Shown here in pieces: positions 18,346-23,693 of a DNA stretch of 47,231 nt (positions within the stretch are counted from its first letter, which is position 1; every line of letters starts with the position of its first letter). The stretch spans positions 1 through 47,231 of the forward strand of contig RDOE01000018.1 of NCBI GenBank assembly GCA_011364975.1, written 5' to 3'. A program made the position numbers and the translations under genes. This stretch comes from Promethearchaeota archaeon (GTDB taxonomy: Archaea > Asgardarchaeota > Lokiarchaeia > Sigyniarchaeales > SOKP01). The notes under the pieces were generated by a model. It did not search any database. It was not told the origin of the DNA and worked only from the letters and a program-made list of their open reading frames with translations.

Positions 18346-20451
18346 GTGAAAAATAAGATGGAAGGACTTAAGAGGGAAAATTTTTACTCTGAGAAATATA
18401 TTAAAAATCTTTTTGATAGTATACCTATTCCTTCTTATGTATGGCAGAAACGGGATAATGATTTCATTCTAATAGACTTCAACAAAGCAGCCAAAAACGC
18501 TACTCAAGAAAAAGCTGAAAATTTGTTATATGAAAAAGCATCTATTAGCTATAAAGACAGACCCGATATTATTGGTGCCCTTAATGAATGTTTTAATCAG
18601 AAAAAATCAATATCACTCCAAACTAAATACACTGTGAAAATCACTGGTGAGGAAGTATATCTCTCTATCAGGAATTATTATATTCCACCAGATTTAGTAG
18701 TAGTTCATGTAAAAGACTTAACCAAAAGGAAATTAGCAGAGAATCAATTATTAGAATCTGAACAAAAATACAAAATGCTTTTTGAAAATTCTCCAATCCC
18801 AATTGTGTTATTAAGTCTTAAAGGAAAAATACTTGATTTCAATCATGCTACCGAAAAAATATTCGGATATGATAAGGAAGAACTCATAAATAAGAATTAT
18901 TTAAGTTTGTGTTTTTATCCATCCGATAATTTACCCCGCTTTAAATCGAGACTTTCTAATTTAAATCAAGGAAAGTCTGTAGAACCAACTGAATTTCAAA
19001 TATTTAAGAAGGATGGAGAAAAAGTGTGGATTTATACCGAAATTTCATTAATCAGAATTAATGATGAATCACTAATTCAAGCTTTTATATTTAATATTAC
19101 AGAGCGTAAGAATTTTGAACAAAAAATTGAACGCATGCTTAGAATTGAGCGATTAATATCAACTATATCATCCAGATTCATTGGATCTGATAATATAGAT
19201 GATTCAATAAACAACTCTCTTATAGAGATGGGGTCTCTCATTCAAGCTGAAAGAGCCTATATTTTGCTTTACAACGAAGAAGACACTTTAGAGTTCTATA
19301 CGCAAGAATGGTGCCTTAAGGGGATTGCGCCACAAAAGATTAATCCAATCGTAATTCAACCAAATAATTTTCCATGGGCTCAAGAACAATATATGAAAAA
19401 TGGTTACATTTATATTGCAAATAAGTTAAACCTTCCAGAATCCGCGGATAATATAAAACAAGTGCTTAATGATTTGAATATTGACTCGCTCCTCTTATTT
19501 CCCATAATCATTAAAGGGGAATTATATGGATTTATAGGATTTGACAACGTTAAGAAATTTCAAGAATGGCATAAAGAAGAGATAGATTTATTTCGAACGT
19601 CATCGGAAGTAATTGGAAATGCTTTAGAGAGGAAATGGTCTGAAGAAACATTAAAAGGAAGTCACCAATTATTAGCGGGGATCATATCTTCATTAACAGA
19701 ATCAATTTGTCTTATTGATTTTAATTTTAATATTATTTGGACTAATAATGTATCCAACCAATTATTCGGACAGCATTTGGTTAATAAAAAATGTTACAAA
19801 ATATTTTTTCAACGAGGAAAACCTTGTGAAAATTGTATAGGGTTTAAAACCTTTACAGATGGAAGAATCCATGAAAAAGAGGTTGAATTAAAAAATTTAG
19901 ATGGTGAGAAGATAATTTGTTGGTACACCTCAAGCTCAGCAGGATTGAATATTGAAGGAGAAACAGAATTTGCAGTATTATTTTTTCGTGATATTACTAA
20001 AAGAAAAACGATCGAGGAATCATTAATTAAATCAGAGCAATCTTTACGCCAATTGAATGAATTCCTAAAAGAAAAAATTGAAGAACGAACTAAAGAATTA
20101 AAAGAATCAGAAGATAATTACAAACGTATTTTAAATGATCTTGACGTAGGATTTTATAAAGGCCAATTTAAAGGAGAATTGTTGATGCATAATTCAAAAT
20201 TAAATCAGATTTTGGGACTAGATGCTTCTATTTCGTTAGTAGGTCTTCAGGCAGTAAAATTTTTTGTGGATGATAACACTCAGGAAAATTATTACAACAT
20301 TCTTACGAGAAGTGATTATGTGAAAGATTTCGAGGCTAAAATTAGAAGACCAGATGGAACAATCATAAAAGTAAATCTAAACTCTCATTTAATTCGTGAT
20401 AATGATGGAAATCCAAAGGAAGTGGAAGGTACTGTTATTCTGATTGAATAA
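18346..20451 (+). CDS. Multi-PAS/GAF sensor protein with no recognisable output domain
   Basis: PAS/PAC repeats (LFENSPIPI...FNITERK; FRDITKRK), a GAF segment (LLLFPIIIKGELYGFIGFD), a coiled coil and a terminal PAS. No H-box or HATPase motifs. Confidence 0.85.
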   Translation: MKNKMEGLKRENFYSEKYIKNLFDSIPIPSYVWQKRDNDFILIDFNKAAKNATQEKAENLLYEKASISYKDRPDIIGALNECFNQKKSISLQTKYTVKITGEEVYLSIRNYYIPPDLVVVHVKDLTKRKLAENQLLESEQKYKMLFENSPIPIVLLSLKGKILDFNHATEKIFGYDKEELINKNYLSLCFYPSDNLPRFKSRLSNLNQGKSVEPTEFQIFKKDGEKVWIYTEISLIRINDESLIQAFIFNITERKNFEQKIERMLRIERLISTISSRFIGSDNIDDSINNSLIEMGSLIQAERAYILLYNEEDTLEFYTQEWCLKGIAPQKINPIVIQPNNFPWAQEQYMKNGYIYIANKLNLPESADNIKQVLNDLNIDSLLLFPIIIKGELYGFIGFDNVKKFQEWHKEEIDLFRTSSEVIGNALERKWSEETLKGSHQLLAGIISSLTESICLIDFNFNIIWTNNVSNQLFGQHLVNKKCYKIFFQRGKPCENCIGFKTFTDGRIHEKEVELKNLDGEKIICWYTSSSAGLNIEGETEFAVLFFRDITKRKTIEESLIKSEQSLRQLNEFLKEKIEERTKELKESEDNYKRILNDLDVGFYKGQFKGELLMHNSKLNQILGLDASISLVGLQAVKFFVDDNTQENYYNILTRSDYVKDFEAKIRRPDGTIIKVNLNSHLIRDNDGNPKEVEGTVILIE

Positions 20452-20492: not shown

Positions 20493-21035
20493 TTACGCGA
20501 ATCTTTTTTTGTCTTGATATTCTTTAACTGAGACTTCTCTATTATTTAGTCTATTAAATTTTAGTAGAGCATCTTCAATTGCTTTAATTTCTGCTCTTGT
20601 GTTAATACCAATATTTTGTAGTTTTTCTAAGATTTCTTTCTCACCATATCCCTTATTAAATAAGGTTTTAAATGTTTCAATGATTTTTTGGTTGTAATAA
20701 AAGTATTGTTTATTAATGTATATAATTAGCCATGATTTTTTTGCTTGATTTTTAGATAAAATATGCATTTTTTTTTGAATCTTTGCTAAGGGCTGTTTAA
20801 GCCTTCGAGCAAGATTTTTATCATCTATAATCATCACATTATTTAATGTACTTCCTAGTTTCTTGTTAAAAATAATGGTGGGAATATATGATAAGATAAA
20901 GAACAAAAGAGTTATAACCGCCATAATCAACGCTGCAATTTGGTTAAAAATGAACACAATAATAATGATTATTACTAAAAAAACAAACCATTTCCTTCCA
21001 ATTGACCTCAAGTATTTAATAAATTTTGATGTCAT
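20493..21035 (-). CDS. Hypothetical membrane protein (N-terminal TM hairpin, basic cytoplasmic domain)
   Basis: 180 aa ORF with hydrophobic residues about 16-56. Confidence 0.7.
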   Translation of the reverse strand: MTSKFIKYLRSIGRKWFVFLVIIIIIVFIFNQIAALIMAVITLLFFILSYIPTIIFNKKLGSTLNNVMIIDDKNLARRLKQPLAKIQKKMHILSKNQAKKSWLIIYINKQYFYYNQKIIETFKTLFNKGYGEKEILEKLQNIGINTRAEIKAIEDALLKFNRLNNREVSVKEYQDKKRFA

Positions 21036-21120: not shown

Positions 21121-21131
21121 AAAAGGTAAAA
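21121..21131 (-). terminator. Possible oligo-T terminator of the 5S precursor
   Basis: Minus-strand TTTTACCTTTT a few nt downstream of the outer processing stem. Confidence 0.35.
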
Positions 21132-21136
21132 TCACT

Positions 21137-21348
21137 TTAACCACATTACTAAAAAGCGATTCCGGGTTCGGATGGGACCGGGTACTATCCTGTATCGCCA
21201 TGACCGTAGCCGAAGCTACAGTTTACAAGTTCCCACAAATCGCAAATCTGCAGTGCGAAGATATAATAGCACTTTTGCAGTACTATTTGCAACGCAAAAC
21301 AGTTTAACTTCCGGCGCTTTAGCGTTTCGCTACAGTAAATGTGGTTAA
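21137..21348 (-). repeat. Inverted repeats forming a processing stem and BHB/BHL motif around the 5S gene
   Basis: Perfect 11-bp inverted repeat TTAACCACATT (21137-21147) / AATGTGGTTAA (21338-21348); AAGCG/CGCTT (21315-21319 / 21154-21158); CCGG/CCGG central helix (21311-21314 / 21162-21165). Confidence 0.85.
21160..21308 (-). rRNA. rrf: 5S rRNA gene, circularly permuted (3' half 21308-21215, UUCG linker 21214-21211, 5' half 21210-21160), with helix IV expansion
   Basis: The 5' half GCTACGGTCATGGCG...ACCCGGTCCCATCCGAACCCGGAA and the 3' half GTTAAACTG...AGTACTG...GGGAAC...ACTGTAGC match the 5S consensus. Helices I-V and loop E (AGUA/GAA) all fold by hand. Confidence 0.9.
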
Positions 21349-21365
21349 CATTTAATTACCAACCA

Positions 21366-21380
21366 TTTTATAAGCTCGGC
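21366..21380 (-). promoter_or_regulatory. BRE-TATA promoter of the 5S precursor
   Basis: Minus-strand GCCGAGC-TTATAAAA. Standard archaeal spacing places the start at about 21344-21349, the beginning of the outer stem. Confidence 0.65.
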
Positions 21381-21533: not shown

Positions 21534-23693
21534 CTAATTTCTCTTAATTTCTGTTGACACGCGTTTACATTTTTTGATATTTATATAGAGAATTGACAAT
21601 GAGATGCTAGCTAATCCAATAATCATGATACTTGAGACGATAAGAGCATAATCACTGAAAGGCTTTGCAATAGTAAAATTAAATGAATCTTCATAGAGAA
21701 AAGTAGTTTTGTTGCTATAATCCCGGGCAACAAACATAAAGGAATACGCCCCAGGTACTAGTTTATTTAAGGTCAGATTAAAATCAAAATTATTTTCATC
21801 AAAATCATTAATTATTCTATGTATCGAAAAATCATGAGAATTATCCTTAAATAGTAATAAAATAATACTTTCAATTCCAGAATGATTATCATACGCCTTT
21901 ACTGAAAAATGTACATTATCTGATACGGTTGGTTCGTTTGGATATCGATAAGCATTAGAAATTACTGGTTGTTCCGAATCTGGAATAGTTATAAAATTAT
22001 AGGATGTTGGAATTAAATTATGCCCAGTTATAAGAACACTATAGTTTTCATTGACTTGAGCCGGTAATCTAAATTTTACATTGCCACTTTTATCCGCATA
22101 GATCGTTCTATTTTTTCCATCTTCTGTTCTGAAATTCAATCTAGCGTAGGGTACCGTGTTATTAAAAATGTCCTTTATTTGTAAAGCAACCAATTGGCCC
22201 TCATAATAAGTTCCTGTAAATGGATTTGAAGCACTTATAGGTATATTTGTATATATATCCACTTCAGGATCTCCTAATAAATTATATGCCAATAGATTTT
22301 TCCGTTCCCACTCTAGCTCCGTAGAAACACTTGGTTGGTTAAAATAATCGCTATTTAGATAAGAAACTTTTGACTCATATAACGCCATTCCCTGCTGAAA
22401 TTTCTTTTCTTCAAAAAATTCTTTCCAGAACAGTTTTGCATTTGCTCGATTCAGCTTCTCAAGATTCGTATCATTCTCAAAATACCAAGTTACTCTTATT
22501 CCACCTATATACCCTATTGCTCCAGAATTTGATTGCTTTATTAAGCGCTCACCTATACTATCATCACCTTTATCATAAGAGGCGGTAGTACACACGTCTG
22601 CATATACAAGTGAAGGCATATTTATGTTAGTACTTGATAAAGCATCGGTATTACTGTAAAAATTCTCACTAGTTGCATCTGTAAAACGTGTAGGATCTCC
22701 ATGACCTGCAAAAATTATTGTTGAATATCCTGAATTTAAATTATTACGAAAGCTTGTGTTGTTAAGACCCCCTAATTGGTTTAATAAAGGAGGTGCTGTT
22801 GGACTAAAAGAGCTAGTGGTTTTTGTTAAATGAGTAAAATTCATATCAGAAAGAACATAATTTTGCCAAATGTATTCCGTAAGACGAGCTTCATCTTCTG
22901 GAGGATTATAAGAAGAAATTCCTCCTGCTAAAAGCATTCTATTCATCCAATTTCCAATATTCATAGCTTTTTCATAATTTAATGTTTTATTTATCATCAA
23001 AGATAACTCTAATGGATTATTTGCAGGTAATCGTCCAACATAAACTTCAGGAATCCAAGAAATTTCATCAACACTCCCTGATTTTGCAGCAGACTCTCCA
23101 AATATGCCATTACCATTATCATCCCAAGTACCACTAAGGTCCGAATAATAGAAATCAGTAGGTTTATAATATTCATCCCAGTTTGAGTATTCCGATTCAC
23201 CCTCAATTTCAGCAGTATCAGGATTATAAACGTATCTAATTGGTATTAAATTTTCATCAGCATCCCCTGCTAAGAGAACCCATCTAATATTATGGGAGGA
23301 ATAAAACGATTTAATCATATTTCTTATCTTTTCTGCTTTATCCCTGCCTTCATAATCGGAATAATTATATAATGCTATGGTTTTAACCCCCTTATAATTT
23401 TTCCATTCCACTAATGGAGTTACCGCATCTAAATAACTCGTATCATTTATAATAACTAACATCTCAATCTTTTGTTCATACCATAATTCATTTAATTCTT
23501 TATAATTGATAGGAGGTAGTGAATTAAGATCTATTTCAGGTATAATTGAGCTTAAGTTTAAATTTAATTTGTTATTTATATCGTGATTATCATAAAGGGG
23601 TTCATATTTTGGAATAATTAAACTAAAGAGTGGCAGAAGAATTACTAGTATAACAAAAATAAATTTAAATTTCTTATATTGATTTAGAACCAT
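21534..23693 (-). CDS. Peptidase C25 (gingipain-like) cysteine protease, membrane anchored
   Basis: WVLLAGD, PTDFYYSDL, PEVYVGRLP, catalytic FAGHG and ADVCTT, GAIGYIG, YNLLGDP; N- and C-terminal hydrophobic helices. Confidence 0.9.
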   Translation of the reverse strand: MVLNQYKKFKFIFVILVILLPLFSLIIPKYEPLYDNHDINNKLNLNLSSIIPEIDLNSLPPINYKELNELWYEQKIEMLVIINDTSYLDAVTPLVEWKNYKGVKTIALYNYSDYEGRDKAEKIRNMIKSFYSSHNIRWVLLAGDADENLIPIRYVYNPDTAEIEGESEYSNWDEYYKPTDFYYSDLSGTWDDNGNGIFGESAAKSGSVDEISWIPEVYVGRLPANNPLELSLMINKTLNYEKAMNIGNWMNRMLLAGGISSYNPPEDEARLTEYIWQNYVLSDMNFTHLTKTTSSFSPTAPPLLNQLGGLNNTSFRNNLNSGYSTIIFAGHGDPTRFTDATSENFYSNTDALSSTNINMPSLVYADVCTTASYDKGDDSIGERLIKQSNSGAIGYIGGIRVTWYFENDTNLEKLNRANAKLFWKEFFEEKKFQQGMALYESKVSYLNSDYFNQPSVSTELEWERKNLLAYNLLGDPEVDIYTNIPISASNPFTGTYYEGQLVALQIKDIFNNTVPYARLNFRTEDGKNRTIYADKSGNVKFRLPAQVNENYSVLITGHNLIPTSYNFITIPDSEQPVISNAYRYPNEPTVSDNVHFSVKAYDNHSGIESIILLLFKDNSHDFSIHRIINDFDENNFDFNLTLNKLVPGAYSFMFVARDYSNKTTFLYEDSFNFTIAKPFSDYALIVSSIMIIGLASISLSILYINIKKCKRVSTEIKRN

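What the first reader, a model, noticed from the sequence alone, without database searches (positions are those of the whole stretch)
21154..21319. Bulge-helix-bulge/loop splice motif built from a duplicated CCGGAA of 5S helix III
Seen: CCGGAA occurs at both gene boundaries (21314-21309 and 21165-21160). Because CCGG is palindromic, the two copies form a 4-bp central helix, each followed by a 3-nt bulge (AAG and AAU). The motif is closed outside by AAGCG/CGCUU and inside by UU/AA with one unpaired C, so it is a relaxed BHL-type site. Established: the archaeal splicing endonuclease EndA cuts after the second bulge nucleotide and RtcB ligates. Applying that rule gives AA|G and AA|U, exactly the cuts that restore the canonical sequence. 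Inference: after ligation the retained CCGG switches partner to form mature helix III, which removes the splice site and makes the reaction one-way.
Basis: partly seen in the sequence, partly recalled or inferred. Interest (0 to 1): 0.85.

Follow-up and report, generated by a model that had tools for sequence, protein, structure and literature searches.

The report
Splice motif un-permutes Asgard 5S rRNA
The 5S ribosomal RNA gene of this Asgard archaeon is written back to front, and its flanks fold into the archaeal RNA-splicing signal that would cut and rejoin the transcript into a normal, probably circular, 5S RNA.

Summary
On the minus strand, CCGGAA stands at 21314-21309 and 21165-21160. 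The flanks AAGCG and CGCUU pair, and the two CCGG pair.

The locus is the genome's only 5S rRNA gene and it is circularly permuted: 3' part, UUCG cap on helix I, then 5' part. Cutting after the second bulge nucleotide on each side and joining the ends restores the canonical 5S sequence.

- In 63 of 63 distinct homologous precursors the 4-bp helix, an exactly 3-nt bulge and the outer helix are kept, with compensatory changes.
- 28 of the 63 break the gene 16 nt away, in loop C, and the same cut rule still restores the sequence.
- All 20 inserts of about 30 nt obey the rule, including a 29-nt intron in this gene.
- A two-subunit EndA with the broad-specificity loop lysine and RtcB are encoded.

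A model of the permuted gene hits 98 of 151 sampled Asgard genomes, in the families that lack a canonical 5S.

Corrections: the upstream element is a complement, not a duplicate, and the inner UU/AA closure is not conserved, so the motif is a relaxed type.

No RNA data were available. Cleavage, ligation and the final (probably circular) form are inferred. I found no published description.

The parts
21366..21374 (-). TATA-like box CUUAUAAAA, about 20 nt upstream of the distal stem; putative promoter of a dedicated pre-5S transcript
   Evidence: Read. The CTTAT core (two invariant T) is largely conserved in alignments A1 and A2. The promoter role is inferred and was not tested.
21338..21348 (-). 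Distal processing-stem 5' strand, UUAACCACAUU
   Evidence: Pairs with 21137-21147. Helix 1: 92% of cells paired, 6 of 11 pairs with changes on both sides. Helix 1: 89% paired.
21320..21332 (-). Leader hairpin UAGCG-AAA-CGCUA between the distal stem and the outer helix
   Evidence: Present in the MFE fold. The equivalent hairpin in loop-C-type genes is 95.6% paired (helix 2).
21315..21319 (-). Outer helix 5' strand, AAGCG (leader, discarded)
   Evidence: Pairs with 21154-21158. The first three outer positions are paired in 35/35, 32/35 and 35/35 precursors of this break type, with G-C/C-G, C-G/G-C/U-A and G-C/A-U/C-G exchanges.
21311..21314 (-). Leader CCGG, the 5' strand of the 4-bp central helix (discarded)
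   Evidence: Paired 4/4 with 21162-21165. 63 of 63 precursors have 4/4. Position 2 is C-G in 19, U-A in 14 and U-G in 2.
21308..21310 (-). 5' cleavage triplet AAG; predicted cut 21309|21308; G21308 is the first retained nucleotide
   Evidence: AAG in 35 of 35 precursors of this type. It is not closed by an inner helix, which makes this the loop side of a bulge-helix-loop motif. Cleavage itself is inferred.
21215..21308 (-). 3' part of the 5S rRNA: 3' strand of helix II, helix V, loop E, helix IV and 3' strand of helix I; contains the intron
   Evidence: After in-silico cutting and rotation it is colinear with canonical 5S of the sister family. The profile-HMM score rises from 16.3 to 37.3 bits. 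Helices II, IV, V and I covary.
21246..21274 (-). 29-nt intron in helix IV with a canonical hBHBh' motif: CUGC 21280-21277, AA|A, inner AGUGC/GCACU, GCAG 21251-21248, AU|U, outer GUA/UGC
   Evidence: Removing it gives the sequence of insert-free relatives at the junction. It is the one alignment-equivalent cut choice in BHB register: central 4/4, inner 5, outer 3. MFE folding of the local region does not predict this fold.
21211..21214 (-). UUCG tetraloop joining the native 3' and 5' ends (cap of helix I)
   Evidence: Read. Helix I (21215-21222 with 21203-21210) is 100% paired with 2 compensatory pairs (helix 8). The loop sequence varies among relatives: UUCG, UACG, UAUG, UUAG, UUUG, CUCG.
21160..21210 (-). 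5' part of the 5S rRNA: 5' strand of helix I, loop A, 5' strand of helix II, helix III and loop C; ends with CCGGAA
   Evidence: Rfam 5S_rRNA partial match of 21.7 bits over this part. Colinear alignment.
21178..21181 (-). Helix III 5' strand CCGG, the partner of 21162-21165 in the mature RNA and competitor of the leader CCGG in the precursor
   Evidence: Read. In loop-C-type relatives the leader pairs with this strand instead.
21162..21165 (-). CCGG with two roles: 3' strand of the central splice helix in the precursor and 3' strand of helix III in the mature RNA
   Evidence: columns 290-293.
21159..21161 (-). 3-nt bulge AAU between the central and outer helices; predicted cut 21160|21159; A21160 is the last retained nucleotide
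   Evidence: The bulge is exactly 3 nt in 63 of 63 precursors. The first two letters are AA in 35 of 35; the third is U 24, A 10, G 1.
21154..21158 (-). Outer helix 3' strand, CGCUU (trailer, discarded)
21137..21147 (-). Distal processing-stem 3' strand, AAUGUGGUUAA
   Evidence: helix 1.
21121..21131 (-). Two U-runs after the stem; possible transcription stop
   Evidence: Read. Inference only.

Best explanation
The locus is the organism's only 5S rRNA gene, encoded in circularly permuted order on the minus strand.

A dedicated transcript of roughly 21345 to 21125 carries, in this order:
- a leader
- the 3' two-thirds of 5S (21308-21215, interrupted by a 29-nt intron)
- a UUCG tetraloop that closes helix I
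- the 5' third of 5S (21210-21160)
- a trailer

Leader and trailer pair in a long processing stem. Its inner end is a relaxed bulge-helix-bulge motif (hBH / bulge-helix-loop):
- outer helix AAGCG/CGCUU
- a 3-nt bulge AAU
- a 4-bp helix between the leader CCGG and the CCGG of helix III
- an unclosed AAG on the other strand

Proposed steps:
1. The two-subunit splicing endonuclease EndA cuts after the second nucleotide of each triplet (21309|21308 and 21160|21159).
2. It also excises the helix IV intron at its own canonical BHB.
3. RtcB joins the 2',3'-cyclic phosphate and 5'-OH ends.
4. The result is a covalently closed RNA of 120 nt in which the CCCGGAA-GUUAAAC junction is continuous, and the retained CCGG pairs with 21181-21178 as mature helix III.
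5. I think it most likely (about 0.55) that this circle, with helix I permanently capped by the tetraloop, is the mature 5S rRNA.

Shown here: the gene order, the motif and its conservation and covariation, and the presence of the enzymes. Inferred: transcription limits, cleavage, ligation and the final form.
For: **Only 5S gene, and it is permuted**
- No canonical 5S in the 3.74-Mb, 99%-complete genome. The best RF00001 match is this locus at 21.7 bits. No second copy appears by blastn.
- After in-silico cutting and rotation the sequence aligns end to end with canonical 5S of the sister family.
- A profile HMM of 27 canonical Asgard 5S scores the rotated form higher in 63 of 63 (mean 40.1 vs 21.3 bits).
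- DNA contigs of three studies span both junctions without joints or indels.

**Motif**
- Central helix 4/4 in 63 of 63 distinct precursors.
- The bulge is exactly 3 nt in 63 of 63.
- Outer-helix positions 1-3 are paired in 35/35, 32/35 and 35/35 (this break type) and 28/28 three times (loop-C type), with compensatory exchanges.
- 99.3% of cells are paired, against at most 45% in shifted registers.
- The tool count on alignment A1 gives 92.8% paired against at most 42% when slid, and 22 pairs with changes on both sides. 0 of 500 shuffles reach the observed percentage paired, the number of pairs and of cells changed on both sides, or the covariation score. For further pair types 208 of 500 do. 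A2 was counted.

**The cut rule is general**
- It restores the canonical junction at this site (35 of 35), at a loop-C site (28 of 28) and at a loop-B site in family f3.
- It does so in 13 of 20 loci of 16 further families, with outer helices of 6-12 bp.
- All 20 of 20 inserts of about 30 nt have an alignment-equivalent cut choice in exact BHB register.

**Enzymes**
- Two EndA paralogs (Pfam).
- One aligns over its full length with the A. pernix catalytic subunit (3p1z_B, 1.6e-35) and keeps K and R at the positions of K44/R46 of the Crenarchaea-specific loop (role of K44 from passages of PMC3241643).
- The other has F and S where M. jannaschii EndA has the Y and H that I recall as catalytic.
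- RtcB matches at 553.7 bits.

**Distribution**
- 0 of 135 genomes of the family have an archaeal canonical 5S.
- The permuted-gene model R1 hits 98 of 151 sampled genomes of the phylum, in families complementary to those with RF00001 hits.
Against: - **No RNA evidence.** No RNA run holding the locus was listed, so neither ends nor the junction were seen.
- **Folding energy alone does not favour the splice fold.** With a trimmed precursor the central helix is in the MFE structure in 12 of 35 (this break type) and 3 of 28 (loop-C type). Mean pair probabilities are 0.30 and 0.12, and 0.11 for this locus. Helix III competes for the same strand. The local MFE does not predict the intron BHB either.
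- **Strict hBHBh' is not met.** There is no inner helix (0 contiguous inner pairs in the 22 loci), so cleavage depends on a broad-specificity enzyme, and that specificity is inferred from homology only.
- **The central-helix covariation is partly confounded.** Its 3' strand is also constrained by helix III, and the leader could be read as a copy of the opposite strand. The outer helix is free of this problem.
- **Exceptions exist.** 3 of 35 have a mispair at outer position 2. L135 has a mismatch in the central helix. L171, L207 and L213 have 3/4. L203, L211 and L219 are imperfect.
- **EndA copy number does not discriminate.** Two EndA genes are found in 145 of 151 sampled genomes, including families with canonical 5S, so the enzyme type is permissive rather than specifically correlated.
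- **A loose BHB scan is unspecific.** 193 of 400 shuffled sequences hit.
Confidence: 0.8

Rival explanations
1. Same cut and ligation, but the circle is only an intermediate. The helix I cap is then opened to give conventional 5' and 3' ends, as happens to the intervening sequence of permuted tRNAs.
For: This is the documented pathway for circularly permuted tRNA genes (abstract and passages of PMC3978253). Circular pre-16S/23S rRNAs are usually thought to be re-linearised (passages of PMC12918454).
Against: - The linker is only a 4-nt loop, mostly of the UUCG type, on a fully paired helix of 8 bp or more. Its sequence varies and no conserved processing signal is seen.
- 5S has no RNase P or tRNase Z handles.
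- Circular 23S rRNA is reported inside archaeal ribosomes (PMC12918454, title and Discussion passage), so a circular rRNA is not without precedent.
Confidence: 0.25
2. EndA (or another nuclease) trims leader and trailer, but the ends are not joined. The mature 5S is a linear, permuted molecule with a capped helix I and a nick at the helix III boundary.
For: Permuted mitochondrial 5S rRNAs of brown algae are permuted in the final product too (passages of PMC4267664). The helices could hold a nicked molecule together.
Against: - Without ligation nothing selects for exact restoration of the sequence. Yet no nucleotide is gained or lost at three different break points and in different registers (AA|G, GA|A, UC|A).
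- RtcB is present.
- Internal introns in the same RNA (20 of 20 in BHB register) need ligation anyway.
Confidence: 0.08
3. The leader-trailer stem is a processing stem for other nucleases, and its likeness to a BHB/BHL motif is incidental.
For: - The splice fold is often not the predicted MFE.
- The motif lacks the inner helix.
- Other archaeal nucleases act on pre-5S rRNA (FAU-1 is mentioned in a passage of PMC7758197).
Against: - An incidental likeness would not keep a 4-bp helix plus an exactly 3-nt bulge in 63 of 63.
- It would not place the canonical 5S boundary exactly two nucleotides into each triplet at several independent break points.
- It would not recur at all 20 internal inserts.
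Confidence: 0.05
4. The permuted order is an assembly artefact or a dead gene copy.
For: The window comes from a metagenome-assembled genome with 6% estimated contamination.
Against: - The same order stands in single DNA contigs from three studies.
- It is found in 66 of 154 species genomes of the order by exact pattern, one copy each.
- It is found in 98 of 151 genomes of the phylum sample by covariance model.
- The helices covary.
- No other archaeal 5S gene exists in 135 genomes of the family.
Confidence: 0.01

Closest known systems
Circularly permuted tRNA genes (Cyanidioschyzon merolae and other algae; Thermofilum pendens). Sources: PMC3978253 (abstract and passages); PMC3218864 (abstract start in listing)
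   Same: - The 3' half is encoded upstream of the 5' half.
- The native ends are joined by a short intervening sequence.
- Leader and trailer form a BHB motif.
- Splicing endonuclease plus ligase make a circular RNA.
- Extra introns can sit in the same gene.
- Origin is proposed by tandem duplication of an intron-containing gene.
   Different: - The RNA here is 5S rRNA, not tRNA.
- It is the only copy of an essential gene in a whole family and in most sampled Asgard families, not a minority of genes.
- The intervening sequence is a stable tetraloop with no known opening enzyme, so the circle may be the end product.
- The splice helix borrows one strand of a mature helix (helix III).
[quoted passage not shown] Source: PMC12918454 (passages)
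   Same: - A long leader-trailer processing stem carries a BHB.
- EndA cuts and RtcB circularises the excised rRNA.
- A circular rRNA can be the functional form.
   Different: - Those genes are colinear with the mature RNA, and ligation joins the natural ends.
- Here ligation joins an internal position and is needed to create the sequence.
- That paper's Background states that circularisation applies to 16S and 23S 'but not 5S rRNAs'.
Circularly permuted 23S rRNA of Pyrococcus furiosus. Source: PMC7758197 (abstract start in listing and passages)
   Same: The order of an archaeal rRNA is rearranged through circularisation.
   Different: There the gene is normal and the RNA becomes permuted after transcription by excision of helix 98. 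Here the gene is permuted and processing restores the normal order.
Permuted mitochondrial 5S rRNA of brown algae. Source: PMC4267664 (passages)
   Same: A 5S rRNA whose helix I is replaced or closed by a hairpin, missed by standard models.
   Different: It is organellar, permuted in the final product, and has no BHB and no ligation. In Rfam release 15 no family reached its gathering score anywhere in the window.
Minor circular forms of 5S rRNA in Halobacterium salinarum and Sulfolobus. Source: PMC12558985 (passages)
   Same: Covalently closed 5S-derived RNAs exist in archaea, including whole-5S circles.
   Different: They arise from normal genes, have variable ends, and are interpreted there as linked to degradation. 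They are not obligatory.

Membership tests
5S rRNA (Rfam RF00001) | Match to the covariance model at or above the gathering score (38 bits) in genomic order | tested here: not met
   21.7 bits, and only the 5' part aligns credibly. This is expected for a permuted gene.
5S rRNA (Rfam RF00001) | Colinear sequence and helices I-V with the conserved loop C and loop E motifs once the predicted processing is applied | tested here: met
   - End-to-end alignment with 8 distinct canonical 5S of the sister family f2.
- HMM score higher after rotation in 63 of 63, with insert-free forms covering model positions 5-116 of 120.
- Helices I, II, IV and V covary.
- Infernal itself could not be run on the rotated sequence.
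5S rRNA (Rfam RF00001) | Presence in the large ribosomal subunit | not testable with these tools
   No RNA or structural data. Indirect support: no other archaeal 5S gene in 135 genomes of the family.
Archaeal bulge-helix-bulge splice motif, strict form hBHBh' | 4-bp central helix | tested here: met
   CCGG/CCGG here. 4/4 in 63 of 63, with C-G, U-A and U-G at position 2.
Archaeal bulge-helix-bulge splice motif, strict form hBHBh' | Two 3-nt bulges, each closed by a flanking helix (outer h and inner h') | tested here: not met
   The 3' bulge AAU is closed by the outer helix in 63 of 63. The 5' triplet AAG is followed by an open loop, with 0 contiguous inner pairs in the 22 loci. The boundary motif is the relaxed hBH / bulge-helix-loop form described in passages of PMC6379350. 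The internal intron at 21274-21246 does meet the strict form.
Archaeal bulge-helix-bulge splice motif, strict form hBHBh' | Cleavage at symmetric positions in the bulges, giving ends that ligate to a functional sequence | tested here: inconclusive
   In silico the rule (recalled: after the second bulge nucleotide) restores the canonical sequence at all junctions and inserts examined. Actual cleavage was not observable.
Substrate of a broad-specificity EndA, (alpha-beta)2 type | Genome encodes a catalytic and a structural subunit, the catalytic one carrying the specific loop with its lysine | tested here: met
   - Two PF01974 genes.
- The 200-aa ORF aligns with 3p1z_B without a gap through the loop region and keeps K and R at K44/R46 (PMC3241643).
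- The 205-aa ORF lacks the Y and H (the identity of the catalytic residues is recalled).
- Heterotetramer assembly and specificity were not tested.
Circularly permuted RNA genes matured through a circular RNA (permuted tRNA type) | 3' part upstream of 5' part, native ends linked, BHB formed by leader and trailer | tested here: met
Circularly permuted RNA genes matured through a circular RNA (permuted tRNA type) | A circular RNA is detected, and the intervening sequence is removed afterwards | not testable with these tools
   No RNA run was available.

The most novel reading that the evidence does not exclude
In most Asgard archaeal lineages the 5S rRNA is made obligatorily by the tRNA-splicing machinery from a back-to-front gene, and it functions in the ribosome as a covalently closed circle with no ends.

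The splice cassette (outer helix, 4-bp helix, purine-rich triplets) has moved among at least three positions of the molecule. It has seeded introns of about 30 nt inside it. The arrangement may go back to an early Asgard ancestor, with reversion to a colinear gene in a few families.
Probability: 0.45. Interest if true: 0.93.

Novelty: new variant of a known kind. Interest (0 to 1): 0.87.

Why it matters
5S rRNA is universal and its gene was thought to be trivially recognisable in archaea.

**It explains a missing gene.** Standard tools find no 5S gene in this genome, nor an archaeal one in any of the 135 genomes of its family. A Methods passage of PMC8813620 states that 5S genes could not be predicted in closed Asgard genomes. 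The present reading explains this and gives a model that recovers the gene in 98 of 151 sampled genomes.

**It extends the splicing pathway to a new substrate.** The BHB/EndA/RtcB pathway would now act on a third rRNA, in a form where splicing is needed to create the sequence.

**It predicts a circular 5S rRNA in ribosomes.** These would be the ribosomes of the closest archaeal relatives of eukaryotes.

**It offers a natural series for evolutionary study.** There are three break points and at least three intron sites, which can show how BHB elements move and how permuted genes arise.

**It matters for annotation.** rRNA completeness criteria for Asgard genomes currently fail for the wrong reason.

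Tried and rejected
**Scans that found nothing**
- The Rfam gathering scan of the window and ARAGORN found nothing.

**RNA evidence**
- No RNA holder was listed for the locus. Expression, RNA ends and the junction could therefore not be examined.
- Reads were laid on DNA contigs instead.

**Infernal on the processed sequence**
A profile HMM in the script box was used instead.

**Motif scans and folding**
- A loose BHB scan of the cores proved unspecific (193 of 400 shuffles hit). It was replaced by the test tied to alignment-defined insert boundaries.
- MFE folding of the intron region did not give the BHB fold.
- MFE and partition-function folding of trimmed precursors supports the boundary motif in only a minority. 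I report this as evidence against, not as a refutation.

**Column-based counts**
- The column-based count of the outer helix in A1 (78.5% paired) is lowered because MAFFT placed a gap in the trailer of 7 rows. The anchor-based count is the one to read.
- My regular expression for the 5' strand of helix III failed on part of the rows, so the three-way table for this break type is incomplete and not used.

**Readings rejected**
- The two RF00001 hits over the cut-off in the family (G015:C263, G076:C68) could have been ordinary second 5S genes. They were rejected because both lie beside bacterial LSU rRNA.
- The inner UU/AA closure was rejected as not conserved.
- EndA copy number might have tracked the permuted gene. 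It does not.

**Not run**
- Structure prediction, complex prediction and the protein database searches were not run, because no claim here depends on them.

**Literature**
- Searches for prior description were. None listed a paper on a permuted or obligatorily spliced archaeal 5S gene.
Full report
**Observation**

Read on the minus strand, the window has these elements in order:
- AAGCG at 21319-21315
- CCGG at 21314-21311
- AA at 21310-21309
- G at 21308
- about 150 nt further on, CCGG at 21165-21162, AA at 21161-21160, U at 21159 and CGCUU at 21158-21154

The unconstrained minimum-energy fold of 21335-21140 pairs AAGCGCCGG with CCGG..AAU..CGCUU.

**What the locus is**

Between the two CCGGAA copies the sequence reads as follows:
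- the 3' two-thirds of a 5S rRNA (21308-21215)
- a UUCG tetraloop (21214-21211)
- the 5' third (21210-21160)

Helix I is closed by the tetraloop instead of carrying the ends.

Rfam sees only a 21.7-bit partial match (gathering score 38). The whole 3.74-Mb, 99%-complete genome has no other 5S match and no second copy by blastn.

When the predicted cuts are applied in a script and the circle is opened at the tetraloop, the sequence aligns end to end with canonical 5S rRNAs of the sister family. A profile HMM built from 27 canonical 5S rRNAs of the same phylum scores the rotated form higher than the genomic order in 63 of 63 homologs. The mean rises from 21.3 to 40.1 bits, and for this locus from 16.3 to 37.3.

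DNA contigs from three studies run across both junctions without joints or indels, so the order is not an assembly artefact.

Record titles of related contigs name the organisms as Promethearchaeota or Promethearchaeia MAGs. These belong to the Asgard group in NCBI taxonomy.

**Comparative test of the splice motif**

Source of the data set:
- I collected 88 loci: 23 from blastn of relatives and 65 from an exact pattern scan of 185,579 species genomes.
- 4 are cut by a contig end and 20 are exact duplicates.
- 64 are distinct precursors, and 63 of these have a complete leader.

Results counted from the cut sites, without an alignment:
- The central helix is 4/4 paired in 63 of 63.
- The bulge between the central and outer helix is exactly 3 nt in 63 of 63.
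- The first three outer-helix positions are paired in 35/35, 32/35 and 35/35 of the genes broken at this site, and in 28/28 at each of the three positions in the others.
- Exchanges include G-C to C-G (28 vs 7), C-G to G-C or U-A, and G-C, A-U and C-G (15, 13, 7).
- At central position 2 the leader is C when the partner is G (19) and U when it is A (14) or G (2), never C opposite A. The leader element is therefore a complement of the helix III strand. It is a 'duplicate' only here, where CCGG is a palindrome.
- Paired cells: 99.3%, against at most 45% when the partner is shifted by 1-4 nt, and at most 92% when trailers are swapped among species.

The tool count on MAFFT alignments agrees:
- A1: 92.8% paired against at most 42% when slid, and 22 pairs with changes on both sides. 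0 of 500 shuffles reach the observed percentage paired, the number of pairs and of cells changed on both sides, or the covariation score. For further pair types 208 of 500 do.
- A2: 93.4% against at most 45%.
- A distal stem (21348-21338 with 21147-21137) and a leader hairpin are also conserved.

**Independent break points**

Three break points were found:

| Break point | Where found | Motif | Result of the cut rule |
|---|---|---|---|
| Helix III boundary (this locus) | 35 of 63 precursors | leader ..GCG CYGG AA\|G ; trailer ..CCRG AA\|N CGC | restores the canonical junction in 35 of 35 |
| Loop C, 16 nt away | 28 of 63 precursors | leader ..GCG CYGG AA\|C; trailer ..CCGG UC\|A CGC | gives GGUC-CCAUCC, the canonical loop C, in 28 of 28 |
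| Loop B | one genome of sister family f3 | CCGA/UCGG, AA\|A twice, CGC/GCG | restores the canonical sequence |

In the loop-C genes the leader pairs with the other strand of helix III. Both the helix III and the loop-C types occur within the same genus, so the break point has moved between close relatives.

**Introns in the same RNA**

Twenty of the 63 cores carry an insert of about 30 nt. This locus is one of them: 29 nt at 21274-21246 in helix IV.

For each insert I listed the cut choices that give the sequence closest to an insert-free relative (mean 3.6 equivalent choices). I then asked whether one lies in BHB register. One does in 20 of 20:
- helix IV: 3 sequences, central CUGC/GCAG, inner 5 bp, outer 3 bp, a strict hBHBh'
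- loop C: 11 sequences
- the helix IV loop: 6 sequences

A single 4-bp match in a fixed register is expected in about 2% of random cases, from base-pair odds and not from a call. The sequences are related, so the 20 are not independent events. By eye, roughly eight sequence-distinct insert types at three sites are involved.

**Enzymes**

- The genome has two EndA genes (both Pfam domains).
- The 200-aa product aligns over its length with the catalytic subunit of the heterotetrameric A. pernix enzyme (3p1z_B, E = 1.6e-35). The alignment has no gap through the loop region and keeps K and R where that enzyme has K44 and R46.
- The 205-aa product is closest to M. jannaschii EndA. It has F and S at the positions of the tyrosine and histidine that I recall as catalytic, which fits a structural subunit.
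- RtcB is present at 553.7 bits.
- Two EndA matches occur in 145 of 151 sampled genomes of the phylum, with or without a canonical 5S. The enzyme is a permissive background, not a specific correlate.

**Distribution**

- The helix I cap pattern is found once each in 66 of 154 species genomes of the order, in two genera.
- RF00001 exceeds its cut-off in only 2 of 135 genomes of the family. Both hits lie beside bacterial LSU rRNA, so they are contaminant contigs.
- Weak hits in five other genera of the family are permuted genes too.
- I built a covariance model (R1) from 17 permuted genes using helices I, II, IV and V only, without the splice helix.
- R1 hits 98 of 151 genomes (at least 85% complete) sampled across the phylum: f1 32/34, f5 4/4, f7 18/18, f21 9/9, f16 5/5, f19 5/6, f13 4/4 and eleven more families.
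- R1 gives nothing or a weak hit in f2 (0/3), f9 (1/37 at 33 bits), f12 (0/2), f14 (0/7) and f24 (0/1).
- Those are the families where RF00001 finds canonical genes: f9 37/37, f14 7/7, f12 2/2, f2 2/3, f24 1/1.
- In 20 loci from 16 further families, a scan for leader-trailer motifs was run (central 4/4, outer at least 3). Its top candidate restores the canonical junction in 13, with a retained length of 115-129 nt and an outer helix of 6-12 bp.
- Of the other seven, two have the helix about 30 nt upstream with a second element next to the 5S start, two have 3/4 central pairs, and three are imperfect.

**Mechanism**

Shown: gene order, motif geometry, covariation, generality of the cut rule, and presence of EndA (two subunits) and RtcB.

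Inferred:
1. A dedicated transcript starts after a TATA-like box (21374-21366) and ends in U-runs (21131-21121).
2. EndA cleaves at 21309|21308 and 21160|21159 and at the intron.
3. RtcB ligates the ends.
4. The retained CCGG then pairs with 21181-21178 as helix III.

The final state is open. The cap is a short, mostly UUCG-type loop of variable sequence on a fully paired helix, and 5S lacks the handles that open permuted tRNA circles. I therefore favour a mature circular 5S of 120 nt, at about 0.55.

**Caveats**

- No RNA run holding the locus was available.
- Energy-based folding favours the splice fold in only 15 of 63 trimmed precursors, because helix III competes for the same strand.
- The strict hBHBh' definition is not met at the gene boundary.
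- The central-helix covariation is partly confounded by helix III. The outer helix is not.
- The rule 'after the second bulge nucleotide' is recalled, not read in a paper here. Its fit to 20 of 20 inserts is the empirical check.

**Comparison and novelty**

The closest known system is the circularly permuted tRNA gene (PMC3978253). It has the same logic and the same enzymes.

The differences here:
- the substrate is a ribosomal RNA
- it is the only copy of an essential gene
- the linker is a tetraloop
- the feature spans most sampled families of a phylum

What the literature says:
- Archaeal 16S and 23S rRNAs are circularised at BHB motifs. The Background of PMC12918454 says this does not apply to 5S.
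- Minor 5S circles from normal genes are known (PMC12558985).
- A permuted organellar 5S without splicing is known (PMC4267664).
- Six full-text searches found no description of a permuted or spliced archaeal 5S gene.
- A Methods passage of PMC8813620 records that 5S genes could not be predicted in closed Asgard genomes.
- Supplements were closed, and journals outside the library were not searched, so prior description cannot be excluded.

I class it as a new variant of a known kind.

Noticed in passing
window 21246-21274 (minus strand): A 29-nt intron with a strict hBHBh' motif sits in helix IV of the same 5S gene. The two closest relatives (L003, L004) have a 30-nt version and the next relative (L013) has none.
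   Followed up: yes
L023, L024, L047-L110 (28 distinct loci; genera g1 and g22): A second permutation point lies in loop C (GGUC|CCAUCC), with the same leader/trailer cassette GCG-CYGG-AA ... CGC. The leader pairs with the other strand of helix III. Both types occur within one genus, so the break point has moved recently.
   Followed up: yes
L044 (G026:C63, family f3): A third permutation point lies in loop B, with central CCGA/UCGG, AA|A on both sides and CGC/GCG outside. Helix I is closed by a 7-nt loop.
   Followed up: partly
Phylum sample; loci L164-L171, L202-L221: The permuted 5S gene is not a local oddity. Model R1 hits 98 of 151 sampled genomes in 18 of 23 families (counting only those with at least half of their sampled genomes hit), complementary to canonical RF00001 hits. 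Outer helices of 8-12 bp are common outside this family.
   Followed up: partly
L204 (f7), L209 (f15), also L165, L203, L211: In some families the outer helix and a first 4-nt element lie about 30 nt upstream of the 5S start, and a second matching element sits next to GUUAAG. This suggests a leader hairpin that behaves like an extra intron, or two-step processing.
   Followed up: no
L017-L022, L052, L068, L069, L095, L104 (loop C of the 5S): Introns of 30-31 nt follow CCGAA in loop C. The central helix is UCCG/CGGG, the triplets are AA|N and AA|C, there is an inner helix of 3-5 bp and no outer helix. At least four unrelated intron sequences occupy the same site.
   Followed up: partly
L168 (G256), L169 (G234), family f9: These 5S genes are in normal order but carry an insert of roughly 30 nt after GUUAAAAG, lowering the RF00001 score to 32-37 bits. 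They may be introns in colinear 5S genes.
   Followed up: no
L043 (G015:C263), L112 (G076:C68): The only canonical 5S hits in the family sit directly after bacterial LSU rRNA, one with a group I intron. These are contaminant contigs in two MAGs.
   Followed up: yes
L086 (DATKTW010000142.1, labelled Nanopelagicaceae bacterium): A contig filed under a bacterial MAG carries a permuted archaeal 5S precursor identical to that of L008. It is probably a mis-binned archaeal contig.
   Followed up: no
window 21534-23693 (-), 18346-20451 (+), 20493-21035 (-): Neighbours of the 5S gene are a Peptidase_C25 protein (719 aa), a PAS/GAF sensor protein (701 aa) and a 180-aa ORF without a Pfam match. The 5S gene is not linked to other rRNA genes. 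The 58-aa ORF at 21172-21348 (+) overlaps the 5S gene and is probably spurious.
   Followed up: partly
run X2, loose end at window 21191: One contig switches at 21191 to a different helix I/cap sequence of the CUUAC type. A related species with its own permuted 5S is in the same sample.
   Followed up: no
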